Below are positions 45,001-51,000 of a DNA stretch of 64,000 nucleotides, piece after piece. Position numbers: made by a program. Positions within the stretch are counted from its first letter, which is position 1; each line of letters begins with the position of its first letter. The stretch is from Elusimicrobiota bacterium (lineage in GTDB: Bacteria; Elusimicrobiota; Endomicrobiia; CG1-02-37-114; JAHJSO01): contig JBDRQF010000038.1 in NCBI GenBank assembly GCA_043826435.1, forward strand, positions 1 to 64,000, given 5' to 3'.

Positions 45001-48000
45001 GACTGAGAAATCCAAAACCGAGAGGCCGCTTTACCCCGGTATGACCGGCTCACAGGAGGAATATCTGCCGGGGATAACATATTCCTATGTTCCCCTTGAC
45101 CTTGAGGCGGCAGGGTATTCAAATGTAACAATCAAAAAAATAAACATATCTATAACTGTTGACACAAAAATTACCACGCCTGTGGTTGACAGGATTAAGA
45201 AAGAAATTACATCGCTTATGGGTCTCAATACCCTCAGGGGTGACGTTGTGGACGTTCAGAAGATTGTGTTTTCGTCAAAAAAGATTAACTGGGGGGAGCA
45301 ACTGCTGAACTTGTTTTCAAATTTATACTGGATTGCTGTTCTCGGACTTATCGCACTGTTTCTTTTCGGGCCGCTCAGGAACTTCTTTAAGACAATCGTA
45401 AAGGCGATGGAAATCAGAATAGATGCGGATACAAAAATAAGGAATTATGACGATGCGTCGCGTGCGGGTATCGGCGGAGGCAATCCTTTTATGCCGTCAG
45501 GCCCCATAGAACTTACGCTGGACAGAAAAAGACCTCAACTAAAGAAAGGGGAAGAAGAACAAATGAAGATGAAAAAGTTCGGGTTCATTGACGCCAACAA
45601 CCTTAAGAATCTTATTTTCCTGCTGAAAGAAGAAAAACCGGAGAAGATTGCAATACTCACGAGTTATCTGTCTTCCGAGTTCACGTCGCAGGTTATTAAT
45701 TCTCTCCCGCCGAAGAAACAGGCGCAGGTTGCTCTCACGCTTACGATGCCCAGAATAATTGACCCGCAGGAGGTTGACGAACTGGAGAAGGAAATGAAGC
45801 AAAAGATTGACTACCTCGTCGGCGGGGACGATTATTTTATGAATTTGCTTGACCAGGTTGATATTGAAACGCAGGAAAATATTTTGCAGAATCTGGAAGG
45901 GACAAACCCCGCGCTGGCGACAAAGATAAGACAGGTGCTTTTCTTCTTTAACGACATCGTAATCCTTGACAAGCAGGTCCTGCAGAAGGTTATAAGGGAG
46001 ATCCAGAAGCAGGGGCTGTCCCTTGCGCTTGCGCTCAAAGGCGCAGCGGATGGGGTAAAATCAAAGGTTATGGAAACATTGACCGAAGGAGCCAGGGCGA
46101 TGCTTGCCGAGCAGATTGACCTCCTGGGAGACGTAACGGAAAAGAGGGCTCAGGATGAACAGAAGCAGATTGCAATAATTATCAAGCAGTTAGAAAGGGC
46201 GGGGGAGATTATTATTGACAGGGGCAAAAAGTTTAATATCATTGATGAGGACAAATCAACCGCAGTCGTACCGGAAGAGGTAAACGGAGAAGAAAGGAGT
46301 ATATAACTTATGGACTTTATGACAATTACGGGGTTGTTGGTTGGCGGGCTTGCAGTGTATTATGCCCTGGCAGTGGGGGGTATAGGGGATCTTATATTTA
46401 ATCTACCTGCTGCAGTTCTGGTATTCGGTGGAACACTTGGAGCGACCATGGTTACATATCCATGGTCAATATTTAGCAGGGTGCCAAAAGCGGTAGGACT
46501 GATGCTATTCCCCCCAAAGCGACTTTCGCCGGAACACTATATTACACTTCTGGTGCAACTTTCAGAGAGGGCAAAAAAATCAGGTATTGACAGTTTACAG
46601 GATGACATACCGAAAATACAGGACCCATTTTTAGTGGATGGATTACAGATGCTTCTGGACGGCCTGGATGCAAATATGGTCAGGGAGAACCTGGACAAAG
46701 AAATCGTTTTTTTGAGACGCAGGCATTCCCAGCTTACCTCTGTTTTCAGAAGTATGGGCACCTATGCCCCAATATTCGGTCTTCTCGGAACCCTTATAGG
46801 TGTTGTTCAGGTTTTGCAGAACCTTACTGACCCCACGTCCATTGGTGCGGCTATGGCTGTGGCGGTTGTCACAACTTTCTATGGGATATTCAGCACAAAT
46901 TTTTTCTATCTGCCGACTGCAGGAAAACTGGATTCTTTAACCGAGCAGGAGGTCCTCCTGAAAGAGGTTGCTATTGAGGGGATCTTAGCCATACAAAAAG
47001 GGGATATCCCGATGATTGTTTCCCGCAAACTGCATGCCTATCTGGCGTACAAAATAAGACAATTCCACCGAAAGAAAGAGACTAAATAAATTAAAATGCC
47101 GCCAGAAACGAAACAAAAAGAACAGGAAAAAATTAGCAGGGAACAAAAATCAAACGAAAAACAGATATGGCTTACTGTTTACTCTGATATGACGACGAAC
47201 CTCGCCTTATTTTTTCTTATATTGTTTTCCCTTACCCGTCTCAGCGCTCCCCAGCGGGAAAAACTTTATGAATCGCTGAAAAAACAGTATAAAGAAAAAA
47301 CAAAGCAGGAAGAGGTGCAGGTCGTAAAAGAAGAGGAGCAGAAGAAAAAGGATGTGGATGAGTTAAAAAAATTAGCGTATGTGGAAGAAACACAACAACA
47401 GATAAAGATAACCCTGCCAAGCCCCGTGCTTTTTGATTTAAACAAGGTGGAACTCAAAACACAGGCGATGAATATACTTTCGCAGATAGCGACGGTTCTG
47501 AAGGGCTCTGATTATCCGATTATTGTGGAGGGACATACTGATAACCTCCCGGTTTATGGCGGGAGATACCCTTCCAACTGGCACCTCTCTTCTGCAAGGG
47601 CTTTCTCTGTGATAGAATATTTTGTTAATGAGGGGAAGATTAACCCTAAAAGGTTTTCGGCGATGGGTCATGCTGAATACAGGCCCGTTGTTCCAAATGA
47701 TACAGAAGAAAACCGTTCCATAAACAGGAGAATTGAAATTATAGTGGTAAAGATATGAGTGCTGAAAATAACAAAAAAAGTTATTCGGAAGAAAATATAG
47801 AAATCGGGGAAACAATTGACCCCGGTTCTGCGTGGCTGATACCTTATGGGAACATGATGACCATCCTGATGGTATTCTTTTTAATCCTTTATGTATTTTC
47901 TTACCAGGCGGACAGCGCTACCTATGAGAGGGTCGTGACAAAGATTCAAAAGGAATTTACGACCAAGGGGGAAAAGGCGGAAAAAATAGCCAGGAAGGCG

Positions 48001-51000
48001 CAGGAAGCGGAACAGGTTGAAAAGATGGCGGAGTATTTTGCTGAAAAGGGTTTTGACAAATTCGCCAAAGTTGAGATTAATGCCGAGAGGGTCAGGGTTA
48101 CCCTTTCAAATCCTGTGCTTTTTTCACTCGGTGAGGCGGTTCTTAAACCAGAGGCGAAACTCCTTTTAAAGCCCATATCCGAACTCACCAAGATTCTCCC
48201 TTCAAAAATAATAATTGAAGGACATACTGACAACCTCCCGATTTATGGCGGTAAATACAAATCAAACTGGGAACTCTCGGCGGACAGGGCGATAAGCGTG
48301 GTCAGATATATGGTTAATGAAGAAGATGTCGCTCCTGAAAGGTTTGCTGTGGCGGGATATGGAGAGTTTCGTCCGGTAGCGCCAAACGATACCGAGGACA
48401 ACAGGGGGAAAAACAGAAGGATAGAGATAGTACTTTTGCGGTCATAAACTGGCGCCCTTTAATTTTTTTTAAAAAACCCTTGACATTTCTCAAAAAACCG
48501 TTATACTAATAATGTTTACAATTTTGTAACCTATGATACCGGAGGGATATAAAATATGGCCGAAAATACGTTGTCTGAAGACAGGGTTTTAAGAGAACTT
48601 CTGCGAACGGAAAGCGATATGGCAAAAGAGACAATCCGGCTTTTACAATCCCGTTACAATTCAGAAAAGCAGCAGTGGGACAAGGTATTTAAAGGAAAAG
48701 AGTCCGACTTAGTCGCTCTAAGGGGCAAACTGGTTGAAACCGAACAACGGCTTAAACAACTGAGGGATGAATCGTCCTGGCAGAGCCACCGGGAGATGGA
48801 ACACCTGAAACTGTCCGTTGAAGAAATAAAAATAAGGAAAGAGAAGGAAATAGAAAAATGGCAGGTCATAGAAAATAAGGTCAGGACGTACAGGCAGATT
48901 GCCGACGAGACCCAGTCCAGGCTACTTGAGGAACAGATGAAACTGGCGGAAACGAGAGAAAAGCGCCTGCAGGAAGAGCAGGACTTCCGCCAGCAGATTG
49001 AAAAATACAACGGACAGGTGGTTGAACTTCAGAACACACTGCTGAAAAAGGAACAGGACTGGACAATAGACAGGGCGAGATACGAGAAGGATGTTGAACG
49101 TCTCTCCGAACAACTTAAAACATTTGAACTGGTTATCCATGACGATAGGACAAGCAGGGATAAAACGATCGGGGATAAGGACGAACACATAATCAGGTTC
49201 CAGAAGGCGCTTCAGGATTTAAGCGTTGAACTGGTTCAGGAGAGACAGCGGAACGAAACACTCCTGCAGGAAGTGGCAGAGCGGGATAAAAGGATAACCG
49301 GTCTGGAAAGCAGGAATAATGAAATTATAACCCGGATTGAACAGGAACGCAGGGAATGGCAGGAGGCATGGCAGAAGCAGCAAAAGGAGTGGGAAGAGCA
49401 TAAGAAAGAAATCATAGTCAAAGAGGATGTCATACAGACGCAGACCGAAGAACAGGTCTCCAAGGTTATGTCAATGCTTGCCGCCCTTGAGATGGAACTG
49501 GTTCAGGAGAGGCATCGCAGGAAAGAGGTTGAGGACAATAATACTGAAAAGATAAAGCAGGTTGAAACGCTCCGGCAGGAAGTGATGAGAATAACCCACA
49601 GGGCTGAAGAGGAAAGAAAGAAACTCGAAGGTTCCTTGTTCGTCCAGGAGGTTGCGTTTGAGTCGCAGCGGACTGCTATCCTTGAAAAATACCAGCAACT
49701 GCAGGTAGAAATTATATCACTGAAAGGCGCCCTTTCCGAAGAGCATCAGGTTCTGGCGCTGGAAAAGGAAAAGACGAAGGGAATTGAAACGGCGTTCCAG
49801 CAAGCCAGAGACAATAACACCCGAATGTTAAACACGGTTGAACAGGACAAGGCACACTGGCAGAAAGTCCTTCTTGAAGAGCAGATCCGTTCCGAGCAGC
49901 GGCTGAAAGAGTATGTATCATTGACCGAACAGGTAAAGAAATCAAGGGAAACGGAAGTCCGAAAACTGCAGGACGAAATAACCTTACTTTCGGCGGAGAT
50001 GGACGAACTCAGGTTGATTTACATATCAACAAAGGTTGAGAATGACCAGAGGAAGTCAAGGATTGCAGAACTTGAGGCGGAGTTTCAGAAGGTTGTCCAG
50101 CAGTGGGAGAGGGAAAGGGCGGAGTGGGAGGACTTACTCGTTAACGAGCAGCAACTCTGGGAGCGGAGAAAAAACGAGGCGATACTCAGGGAGCAGCGGC
50201 TCGCAGGAGAAAGGGAAAAAGAAATAAAACAACTCATGTCACAACTGGATGACGCAAGAGTGAAATTTATATCCACCCGTCAGGAACTGCACGAGAAAGA
50301 AAATAAAATATACGAACTGCAATTGCAGATAAACGGACTTGCGTCCTCTCCGCTTGCAAAACCCACTTGATATACCCGCAGGGTAGCGGTTCTACCTGAA
50401 AAAATTTCAAAATGGAAAACGAAGAATTAATTAATAAAACGAAGATATTGTTGGTTGATGATGATTCGGCAGTTGCAGGTATGTGTAAAAGGGTTCTTGA
50501 GAGTAATAATTATTATGTAGAGACCGTCTCAAGCGGCAGGGACGCCCTTGCGATACTGAATAATAAATTTTTTAATATGGTTTTAGCCGATATAAAACTG
50601 CCGGGCGACATGGACGGTATCGCACTTTTGAAGGAAATAAGACATAAATACCCGTCAGTTATTGTTATAATAATGACCGCTTACGGCACCATTGAAACAG
50701 CCATTACGACGATGAAAGAAGGCGCTTGCGATTATCTGATAAAACCGTTTGATATACACATTCTGTTAAATACTGTCCGGCGCTCTCTTGAGTTCTGTCG
50801 TTTAAAATCTGAGTCGGAGGTTCTTCTAAATGCCATATCTTTATTTGAATTTGTATCAGAGACATCTTCAGACAAAACGGGGGAGGAATTGCTCTCGTTA
50901 CTTCTGGGGAATGCCTTAAAGATTATGAGGGCCAATTCGGGCTCGGTTTTTGTTTACAATAAAATAACAGAAAAGTTGGAGATGATGACTTGTATCGGAA

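What a model noticed while it worked through the whole genome (the two positions that open the first line are those of the whole stretch)
46310..48447. Each FliFG motor cluster has two MotB paralogues, one of which has Asn in place of the proton-carrying Asp
Downstream of each complete FliF-FliG fusion gene lie one motA and two motB genes; the first MotB keeps the conserved transmembrane Asp (g01030 ..VYSDMTT.., g00756 ..VMSDLMT..), the second has Asn there (g01031 ..PYGNMMT.., g00755 ..PYGNLMM..), and the same pairing recurs in other Endomicrobiia. I read this as an obligately asymmetric stator, MotA5-MotB(D)-MotB(N), in which only one of the two channel subunits can be protonated. Since protonation of the two MotB Asp residues is central to current 5:2 rotary models, a natural one-Asp stator would be a test case for how these motors step.
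Evidence so far: Sequences of g01030, g01031, g00755, g00756 and motif scan: Asp form WLTVYSDM / WLTVMSDL, Asn form LIPYGNMM / MLPYGNLM; the FlbD-linked MotB g00655 has Asp (SSYGDLVT). In relatives' loci the second MotB reads PYGN(L/M)MT in L016, L019, L020, L023, L024 and PYADFMT in L021; the first reads YSDM/YTDM in L016 and L021 (other first copies were not caught by the pattern). Two MotB genes follow MotA in 7 of the 8 Endomicrobiia-type loci whose DNA reaches beyond motA (L016, L019-L024; L018 is cut). All four have MotB_plug, and the three complete ones OmpA, Pfam domains.
(Added by a program. Inside this text positions count along the whole contig: contig position 1 is position 1 of the stretch shown here. 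"Call 12" and the like, gene names such as g00115 and contig names such as C1 are that model's own, and its searches are not shown. The text may have been shortened before it was handed on; [...] marks where a part breaks off. The agent that wrote the report below was given it as the finding of a first reader that could run no searches.)

Follow-up and report, generated by a model that had tools for sequence, protein, structure and literature searches.

The report
Stator with one proton-binding MotB
A groundwater bacterium without flagella has rotary-motor gene clusters with one MotA and two different MotB genes, and the second MotB is well conserved but lacks the acidic residue that normally carries the driving ion, which offers a natural test of how these motors step.

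Summary
Window 44825-48447 encodes a FliF-FliG fusion, MotA, MotB1 (Asp31) and MotB2 (Asn33, codon AAC 47851-47853). Asn33 aligns with the ion-binding Asp of solved MotBs. A second cluster on another contig is the same. The genome (96.7% complete) gave no FlhA or flagellin match, so this is not a flagellum.

In the first sample of related genomes, 54 loci have MotA-MotB1-MotB2. MotB1 has Asp wherever it can be read. MotB2 has Asp in 28, Asn in 22, Ser in 2 and Ala in 1. A concatenated tree needs at least 6 Asp/non-Asp changes in MotB2 (4 forced by well-supported branches) and none in MotB1.

MotB2(Asn) is not decaying. Its dN/dS is 0.08-0.16, like MotB1. Its membrane helix, plug and cell-wall-binding motifs are intact, and it was never found without an Asp-bearing MotB1 just upstream. 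Contigs from two other studies carry the same codon.

My best reading (0.55) is a MotA5-MotB1-MotB2 heteromer in which only MotB1's Asp is obligatory. The heterodimer is inferred, not shown. The main rival (0.3) is two separate homodimeric stators, with the Asn form as a non-conducting regulator.

I rate it a new variant of a known kind, interest 0.7.

The parts
42968..44806 (+). 612-aa protein with N-terminal 14-residue repeats, a weak outer-membrane-transporter-like match and C-terminal TPR repeats. Conserved context directly upstream of FliFG.
   Evidence: Pfam TPR_1/TPR_2 over cut-off, Toluene_X weak. phmmer finds 85 ORF hits among the fetched loci (the window's own included); the 25 best that were printed lie next to FliFG genes of both short and long types.
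44825..46306 (+). FliF-FliG fusion (FliFG): signal-like N-terminus, FliF C-terminal ring motif, membrane helix, FliG middle and C-terminal (torque) domains. Presumed rotor.
   Evidence: Pfam FliG_C 1.7e-23, FliG_M 3.8e-12, YscJ_FliF_C 1.5e-5. Aligns to T. maritima FliG-MC 1lkv over residues 249-468, E 1.4e-33.
46310..47089 (+). MotA/PomA-type stator A subunit; TM4 keeps the Thr-Thr motif (..AVVTTFYG..).
   Evidence: Pfam MotA_ExbB 7.3e-24. Full-length alignments to solved MotA/PomA chains, E 9e-50 to 3e-41.
47096..47758 (+). MotB1: stator B subunit that keeps the ion-binding Asp (Asp31, codon 47186-47188), with a conserved Asn four residues later (..SDMTTNL..).
   Evidence: MotB_plug + OmpA. 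Asp aligned to the Asp of 6ysf/6ysl. Asp in 50 of 50 MotB1 copies in the concatenated alignment.
47755..48447 (+). MotB2: stator B subunit paralogue (38% identical to MotB1) with Asn33 (AAC, 47851-47853) in place of the Asp. Plug helix and OmpA-like peptidoglycan-binding motifs are intact.
   Evidence: dN/dS of Asn-type orthologue pairs 0.08-0.16.
47755..47758 (+). ATGA overlap of the motB1 stop and the motB2 start (likely translational coupling).
   Evidence: The same 4-base overlap occurs in 8 of 51 tandem pairs, and most other gaps are a few bases (start codons are mechanical calls).
48556..50370 (+). 604-aa coiled-coil protein with no Pfam match, found downstream of motB2 only in the closest family of clusters.
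   Evidence: No Pfam family. phmmer hits in L046, L049, L128-L131.

Best explanation
The cluster encodes a non-flagellar, flagellar-type rotary module. The rotor is a membrane ring of FliF-FliG fusion protein. It is driven by stator units built from five MotA and a heterodimer of two different B subunits, MotB1 and MotB2. MotB1 supplies the only indispensable ion-binding carboxylate (Asp31). MotB2 is the second chain of the central dimer. It still inserts its helix into the MotA pentamer, plugs the channel and anchors to peptidoglycan. Its own carboxylate is dispensable, and in this lineage it has been replaced by Asn, the permanently neutral mimic of protonated Asp. In the published inchworm model, MotA can rotate only past a neutralised Asp. 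Under that model, a MotB2(Asn) chain never blocks rotation and never takes up an ion. Rotation would then be gated by MotB1 alone, at about one ion per 72 degrees (5 per MotA turn) instead of one per 36 degrees. What is shown: the gene content, the Asn at the Asp position, purifying selection, repeated loss in MotB2 only, and constant pairing with MotB1(Asp). What is inferred: the heterodimer, the stoichiometry, the stepping and the rotor function.
For: (1) Asn33 sits at the Asp position of solved MotBs. The codon is confirmed in contigs of two other studies.
(2) Of 87 fetched loci with a MotA, 54 have MotB1 and MotB2 in tandem. MotB1 has Asp in 53, and in the 54th (L056) the Asp lies upstream of a frameshift. 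MotB2 has Asp in 28, Asn in 22, Ser in 2, Ala in 1, and one is unreadable.
(3) On a MotA+MotB1+MotB2 tree (50 loci, 704 columns, trait columns removed), MotB2 needs at least 6 Asp/non-Asp changes, 4 forced by branches with SH-aLRT of 95 or more. MotB1 needs 0.
(4) Replacements are only N, S, A and T, all small and neutral. This fits a residue still packed against MotA's Thr ring, which is kept.
(5) dN/dS of MotB2(Asn) is 0.076-0.157, against 0.063-0.117 for MotB1 in the same pairs and 0.036-0.198 for MotB2(Asp). Branch lengths of B1 and B2 orthologues are alike.
(6) A motif scan of 185,579 species genomes found 30 Asn-type loci, 16 of them new. All have the same MotA-MotB1-MotB2 order, and MotB1 has Asp in all 27 readable. 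No Asn-type MotB was found alone.
(7) The motB1 and motB2 genes overlap by ATGA, as expected for subunits made together.
(8) Retaining a non-conducting B subunit in several separate lineages is easier to explain if it is a structural half of every stator.
(9) Precedent: AglR5-AglQ-AglS is predicted to carry a heterodimer in the pore (PMC11761067, passages). TPH-vWA motor partners occur in heterologous pairs (PMC12204202, passages).
Against: No physical or structural evidence for a MotB1-MotB2 heterodimer was obtained. Gene order, coupling and co-retention would also fit two homodimeric stators that share MotA. In Aquifex, each of two tandem MotBs works with MotA on its own in chimeras (PMC4525482, passages). 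Asp-to-Asn in PomB abolishes ion flow, and the E. coli equivalent is dominant-negative (bioRxiv 10.1101/2021.01.07.425829, passages). That may mean mixed dimers are inactive in classical motors. About half of the tandem loci keep Asp in MotB2, and within large clades it stays Asp, so that Asp is useful where present. One related locus (L062) has a single MotB. The tree is a quick search with SH-aLRT support only, and its backbone is poorly resolved. No expression data exist.
Confidence: 0.55

Rival explanations
1. There are two alternative homodimeric stators that share one MotA. MotA5-MotB1(2) is the working ion-driven unit. MotA5-MotB2(2), which cannot conduct ions when MotB2 carries Asn, acts as a brake, lock, place-holder or static anchor on the FliFG ring.
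For: Aquifex aeolicus has a motA-motB1-motB2 operon in which each MotB works with MotA separately in chimeras (PMC4525482, passages). Asp-to-Asn stators still bind FliG, even more stably, in cross-linking work (bioRxiv 10.1101/2021.01.07.425829, passages), so a non-conducting unit could hold the rotor. A regulator would also be under purifying selection.
Against: The ATGA stop/start overlap and the invariant 1:1 tandem order suggest fixed co-production, not differential regulation. In Aquifex the two membrane helices are 97% identical. Here MotB1 and MotB2 helices differ strongly and consistently across the phylum, which fits distinct roles in one dimer. No locus was seen with MotB2 alone after MotA. 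A brake would have to arise independently at least 4-6 times by the same single-residue loss.
Confidence: 0.3
2. MotB2(Asn) is a decaying or functionless duplicate of MotB1.
For: Asn at this position inactivates classical MotB/PomB (passages). One locus with Ala (L136) sits on very long branches. Two loci carry frameshifts in one of the two genes.
Against: dN/dS is 0.08-0.16, equal to MotB1. The frames are intact in 22 Asn-type loci of the first set and 16 more from the genome scan, apart from copies cut by contig ends. The membrane helix is near-invariant (W..PYGN[LM]MT.LM.FF). The GHTDN...SNWELS..RA...NRRIEI peptidoglycan-binding motifs are intact. At least 16 distinct 50%-identity clusters carry Asn among the 150 best representatives.
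Confidence: 0.03
3. MotB2 works with a partner other than the adjacent MotA, or in a role unrelated to ion conduction. For example, it might tether the conserved upstream TPR/outer-membrane protein or the coiled-coil protein to peptidoglycan, so its Asp is irrelevant.
For: A TPR/outer-membrane-like protein is conserved upstream of FliFG. The function of the whole module is unknown, and the genome gave no match to two core flagellar genes.
Against: The membrane helix and plug of MotB2 keep the canonical MotB pattern apart from the Asp. This makes sense only for a helix that sits inside a MotA-type pentamer. MotB2 always follows motA-motB1.
Confidence: 0.1

Closest known systems
Flagellar stator unit MotA5-MotB2 / PomA5-PomB2 (solved: 6ykm, 6ysf, 6ysl, 8bri)
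   Same: MotA aligns over its full length to solved MotA/PomA (E down to 9e-50). Both MotBs have the membrane helix, plug and OmpA-like domain. A FliG torque domain is encoded next door.
   Different: There are two different B genes per A gene, and one lacks the Asp that the literature calls absolutely or universally conserved (passages). FliG is fused to a short FliF. No FlhA or flagellin match was found in a 96.7% complete genome. All NCBIfam equivalog scores are below their cut-offs.
Aquifex aeolicus motA-motB1-motB2 operon (PMC4525482)
   Same: One motA is followed by two motB genes in one operon (passages).
   Different: In Aquifex the two N-terminal and membrane regions are 97% identical and differ in the periplasmic part. 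Each works with MotA separately, and it belongs to a real flagellum. Here the helices differ (38% identity overall) and the second lacks the Asp.
Myxococcus gliding motor AglR-AglQ-AglS (PMC11761067)
   Same: It is a non-flagellar 5:2-type motor with one A-type and two different B-type genes, predicted as A5 with a B-B' heterodimer in the pore (passages).
   Different: AglQ and AglS are TolR-like, without an OmpA-type MotB domain, and there is no FliG rotor. That paper's passages say nothing about a missing Asp. From recall, not checked here, both keep it.
Engineered Asp-to-Asn stators (CjMotB D22N, 6ykr; PomB/PotB D24N; E. coli MotB D32N)
   Same: The same residue change at the same position. 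Asn is used as a mimic of the protonated or ion-bound Asp (passages).
   Different: Those are laboratory mutants with both chains changed, non-functional and dominant-negative. Here the change is natural, sits in one of two paralogous chains, and is kept under purifying selection.

Membership tests
MotB/PomB stator B subunit | Single N-terminal membrane helix carrying the invariant ion-binding Asp (E. coli Asp32) | tested here: not met
   MotB2 has Asn33 at the aligned position. MotB1 meets this feature (Asp31).
MotB/PomB stator B subunit | Plug segment after the helix (Pfam MotB_plug) | tested here: met
   MotB1 38.3 bits and MotB2 41.7 bits, cut-off 24. The C33 copies score 34.2 and 33.9 bits.
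MotB/PomB stator B subunit | C-terminal OmpA-like peptidoglycan-binding domain | tested here: met
   OmpA 69.0 and 70.3 bits, cut-off 27.2. The GHTDN / SNW.LS..RA / NRRIEI motifs are present in both.
MotB/PomB stator B subunit | Encoded next to a MotA-type A subunit | tested here: met
   The same order holds in 54 fetched loci and 30 scan loci.
MotB/PomB stator B subunit | Curated equivalog score (NCBIfam MotB/MotD/MotS models) | tested here: not met
   Best scores are 154.5 bits against cut-off 301 (MotB2) and 154.3 against 283 (MotB1).
Bacterial flagellar motor | Export gate FlhA and flagellin present in the genome | tested here: not met
   No PF00771 and no PF00669 match in G000, which is 96.68% complete. 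The only FliG_C matches over the cut-off are the two fusions. Rod, hook and C-ring families were not searched.
Heteromeric 5:1:1 motor (AglR5QS type) | One A gene with two distinct B genes conserved together | tested here: met
Heteromeric 5:1:1 motor (AglR5QS type) | B and B' form a heterodimer inside the A pentamer | not testable with these tools
   This needs a 7-chain model or an experiment. Complex prediction takes at most 6 chains and 1000 residues, so it was not run.

The most novel reading that the evidence does not exclude
These organisms run a natural single-carboxylate stator: MotA5-MotB1(Asp)-MotB2(Asn/Ser/Ala). It turns a non-flagellar FliF-FliG ring with one ion per 72 degrees of MotA rotation. 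This 'half-stroke' form has arisen from a two-Asp heterodimeric stator at least four to six times. If so, the second Asp of a 5:2 motor is not mechanistically required, and nature has already run the asymmetric-dimer experiment that current inchworm models need.
Probability: 0.35. Interest if true: 0.85.

Novelty: new variant of a known kind. Interest (0 to 1): 0.7.

Why it matters
Rotary models of 5:2 ion-driven motors (MotAB, PomAB, ExbBD, TolQR, GldLM, Zorya) assume that the two central Asp residues act alternately. The Santiveri et al. preprint preferred 36-degree steps over 72-degree steps for exactly that reason (passages). A natural stator family offers matched pairs for testing this. 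Closely related clusters carry Asp/Asp, Asp/Asn or Asp/Ser, and all are under purifying selection. With them one could ask whether one carboxylate suffices, how many ions a turn costs, and what the second chain is for. The clusters also belong to a widespread, undescribed FliF-FliG/MotAB module: 177 of 401 sampled genomes of the phylum have a FliFG relative. In this genome no match to two core flagellar genes was found, so what the module drives is itself unknown.

Tried and rejected
- The search for related loci with the single FliFG protein found no relative. An alignment-based scan worked later.
- A 567-aa 'MotB1-MotB2 fusion' in L079 looked like Rosetta-stone support for a heterodimer. It is two genes read through a masked run of N, so I rejected it.
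- I looked for a compensating acidic residue in the MotB2(Asn) helix or in MotA TM3/TM4 and found none.
- I looked for MotA columns that track the Asp/non-Asp state. The residue before the Thr ring is Thr in 20 of 23 non-Asp loci and in 5 of 27 Asp loci. Only 4 independent pairs exist and the sign test gives p of 0.125 or more, so this is a lead, not a finding.
- Expression: no RNA holder was listed, and two metatranscriptome runs of the possible source study had no contig on the stretch. This says nothing either way.
- Complex prediction was not run. A MotB1+MotB2 two-chain job would pass or fail by likeness to solved MotB homodimers and could not separate heterodimer from homodimer.
- Spontaneous deamidation of Asn back to Asp was considered and set aside. 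Ser, Ala and Thr variants occupy the same position.
- Literature searches that found nothing on this point: MotB + 'lacks the conserved aspartate' (0 papers); MotB + D32N + heterodimer (0); Elusimicrobia/FliG/MotA/MotB (none of the 15 papers listed mentions Elusimicrobia); Elusimicrobi + MotB + flagell (5 papers, none on this by title and abstract, and I read passages of only one); 'FliF-FliG fusion'/non-flagellated/MotA (nothing relevant in the 15 listed).
- Subscription papers are not in that library, so 'not in print' holds for the library searched only.

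
Full report
**What is in the window**

Window 44825-48447 holds four co-directional, tightly packed genes:
- a 493-aa FliF-FliG fusion (44825-46306)
- MotA (46310-47089)
- MotB1 (47096-47758)
- MotB2 (47755-48447)

Pfam supports each assignment over its cut-off. 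The fusion hits FliG_C, FliG_M and YscJ_FliF_C. MotA hits MotA_ExbB. Both MotBs hit MotB_plug and OmpA. MotA aligns end to end with solved MotA/PomA chains (E 9e-50 to 3e-41). The fusion's C-terminal half aligns with Thermotoga FliG-MC (E 1.4e-33). All NCBIfam equivalog scores fall below their cut-offs, so these are divergent members.

**The Asn is real and at the right position**

In phmmer alignments to the solved stators of C. sporogenes (6ysf) and B. subtilis (6ysl), Asp31 of MotB1 (..VYSDMTT..) and Asn33 of MotB2 (..PYGNMMT..) both fall on the ion-binding Asp. The codon is AAC at 47851-47853, one base away from GAC. The motB1 stop overlaps the motB2 start as ATGA. Contigs from two other groundwater studies cover the cluster at about 99% identity and show no difference at the Asn or the Asp codon. 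The two MotBs are 38% identical. Both keep the GHTDN, SNW.LS..RA and NRRIEI motifs of peptidoglycan-binding OmpA-like domains.

**Genome context**

The assembly is 1.83 Mb and 96.68% complete. It has five MotB_plug genes, three MotA-type genes among seven MotA_ExbB matches, and only two FliG_C matches over the cut-off, both of them fusions.
- Contig C33 carries a second FliFG-MotA-MotB1(WLTVMSDL)-MotB2(MLPYGNLMM) cluster. Its last gene is cut by the contig end.
- Contig C29 carries FlbD-MotA-MotB(SSYGDLVT), followed by a pyruvate phosphate dikinase-like gene.
- No FHIPEP (FlhA) and no flagellin match was found.

So this is a flagellar-type rotor-stator module in an organism that gave no match to two core flagellar genes. 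Other flagellar families (rod, hook, C-ring) were not searched. Record titles of close relatives name Endomicrobia/Elusimicrobia.

**Relatives: first sample**

FliFG relatives occur in 177 of 401 sampled genomes of the phylum, often two or three per genome. I fetched 120 stretches around FliFG or MotB hits and analysed 120 loci, counting three from the window's own genome.

Of 87 loci with a MotA:
- 54 have two MotB genes in tandem after it
- 30 have one MotB
- 3 end before any MotB

The tandem pairs read MotB1/MotB2 as follows:

| MotB1 / MotB2 | Loci |
|---|---|
| Asp / Asp | 28 |
| Asp / Asn | 21 |
| Asp / Ser | 2 |
| Asp / Ala | 1 |
| unreadable / Asn (L056) | 1 |
| Asp / unreadable (L131) | 1 |

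In L056, MotB1 is frameshifted just after an intact ..WRTVYSDM... In L131, MotB2 is frameshifted at that very codon. L079, read as one 567-aa frame, is two genes joined across masked N and would be a 29th Asp/Asp pair. Clusters with a long (about 650 aa) FliFG have a single MotB with ..YADLMTE...

**Relatives: second, independent look**

A scan of one genome for each of 185,579 species with the pattern N[LM]MT[IFV]LM[IV][FL] gave 30 loci. All 30 have the order (FliFG-)MotA-MotB1-MotB2(Asn). MotB1 has Asp in all 27 where it can be read. Two loci lack a readable upstream MotB gene, and one is the L056 contig.

Combining both sets gives 41 distinct non-Asp MotB2 loci. In all 39 where the upstream gene can be read, it is an Asp-bearing MotB1. 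This second set was searched by the Asn motif, so it must not be used for the Asp:Asn ratio.

Among the 150 best representatives of 1.84 billion clustered proteins, 134 have a recognisable helix: 112 Asp, 16 Asn, 3 Ser, 1 Thr, and 2 truncated.

**Phylogeny**

A tree of 132 MotB sequences puts the MotB1 and MotB2 copies together in one clade, apart from the single-MotB types (SH-aLRT 95). Most MotB1 copies cluster together and MotB2 forms a poorly resolved grade.

I then built a concatenated MotA+MotB1+MotB2 tree: 50 loci, 704 columns, the two trait columns removed, quick IQ-TREE with SH-aLRT only. It needs at least 6 changes between Asp and non-Asp in MotB2, 4 of them forced by starred branches. 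MotB1 needs none (50 of 50 Asp). Clear cases:
- The C33-type cluster of this genome (Asn) is sister to three Asp loci (support 99).
- L063 (Asn) and L064 (Ser) sit inside an Asp clade (support 100).
- A clade of seven Asn loci is sister to three Asp loci (support 99).

The direction of change is not resolved.

**Selection**

Nei-Gojobori dN/dS was usable in few pairs because dS was often saturated:

| Gene | dN/dS | Usable pairs |
|---|---|---|
| MotB2(Asn) | 0.076-0.157 | 4 |
| MotB1, same loci | 0.063-0.117 | 6 |
| MotB2(Asp) | 0.036-0.198 | 5 |

The MotB2(Asn) helix is nearly invariant (W..PYGN[LM]MT.LM.FF). Replacements at the site are confined to N, S, A and T. MotA keeps its TM4 Thr pair in all 23 non-Asp loci. 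MotB2(Asn) is therefore a constrained, working protein whose helix still appears to sit in a MotA-type pore.

**Interpretation**

The evidence fits best a stator built as MotA5-MotB1-MotB2, in which MotB1's Asp is essential and MotB2's is optional. The argument against two independent homodimeric stators is indirect:
- The two genes are coupled 1:1.
- Their helices have been consistently different since before the phylum diversified. This is unlike Aquifex, where the two helices are 97% identical and each MotB works alone (PMC4525482, passages).
- MotB2 was never seen without MotB1.
- A B subunit that cannot conduct has been retained several times over, not lost.

Predicted heterodimeric B subunits exist in AglR5QS (PMC11761067, passages) and in TPH-vWA motors (PMC12204202, passages).

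On mechanism, Asn is the accepted mimic of protonated Asp (Santiveri et al. preprint, passages). That model lets MotA rotate only past a neutral residue. A MotB2(Asn) chain would then never stall rotation and never consume an ion, leaving about one ion per 72 degrees. That preprint weighed a 72-degree scheme and set it aside because both 'universally conserved' Asp residues should alternate.

Against this reading, Asp-to-Asn abolishes ion flow in PomB and the E. coli equivalent is dominant-negative (bioRxiv 10.1101/2021.01.07.425829, passages). Where MotB2 has Asp, it stays Asp across large clades. And nothing here shows the heterodimer physically.

**Verdict**

I found no description of a natural MotB that lacks the Asp, or of this module, in the library searched. 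Subscription journals are not covered. I rate it a new variant of a known kind (5:2 stators, heteromeric B subunits), interest 0.7.

Noticed in passing
whole genome G000 (contigs C38, C33, C29): The genome has two FliF-FliG fusions, three MotA and five MotB genes and one FlbD, but no FlhA or flagellin match at 96.68% completeness. FliFG relatives occur in 177 of 401 sampled genomes of the phylum, often 2-3 per genome. This is a widespread non-flagellar rotor-stator module whose output is unknown.
   Followed up: partly
window 42968-44806: A 612-aa protein (four N-terminal 14-residue repeats, weak FadL/Toluene_X-like match, C-terminal TPRs) lies directly upstream of FliFG. phmmer gives 85 ORF hits among the fetched loci, and the 25 best that were printed lie next to FliFG genes of both short and long types. 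It is a candidate partner of the rotor.
   Followed up: partly
G000 contig C29 (L002:397-2220): An orphan FlbD-MotA-MotB(Asp) cluster lies next to a pyruvate phosphate dikinase-like gene, with no third FliG in the genome.
   Followed up: no
L065 (G007:C3), MotB-like ORF 7052-7678: A single MotB after MotA, about 3 kb from a long FliFG, reads ..WYWSYTGMALL.. with Gly at the Asp position. It is a lone B subunit without the carboxylate, unlike all other singles (29 of 30 have Asp).
   Followed up: no
L062 (G003:C54), ORF 1282-1971: This is the only short-FliFG-type locus with one MotB. Its helix is MotB1-like (WLTIYSDIITNL) but the segment after it resembles the MotB2 plug. GroES/GroEL follow directly. 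It may be an unduplicated or recombinant form.
   Followed up: partly
MotB1 47096-47758 and relatives: MotB1 copies carry a conserved Asn four residues after the Asp (D-x-x-T-N-L). The single MotBs of long-FliFG clusters carry Glu there (D-L-M-T-E-L). MotB2 mostly has a hydrophobic residue. This is a second polar position in the pore helix that classical MotBs in the alignments lack.
   Followed up: no
MotA 46310-47089, TM4 (..AVVTTFYG..): The residue before the conserved Thr is Thr in 20 of 23 loci whose MotB2 lacks Asp, but in only 5 of 27 loci whose MotB2 has Asp. It goes the same way in about 3 of 4 independent pairs, p of 0.125 or more.
   Followed up: partly
L046 (G071:C78): In the closest FliFG relative (61% identity), the motA-motB1-motB2 block is inverted between FliFG and the coiled-coil gene, and MotB2 has Asp.
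   Followed up: no
L162-L191 record titles: Several MAGs that carry this cluster are titled Clostridia, Ignavibacteria or Thermodesulfovibrio. The submitters' labels look unreliable.
   Followed up: no
window 35928-42971: A 2347-aa secreted-looking protein, apparently with repeat regions and a distinct C-terminal domain, ends just before the cluster. No relative of its last 400 residues was found in the fetched loci.
   Followed up: no
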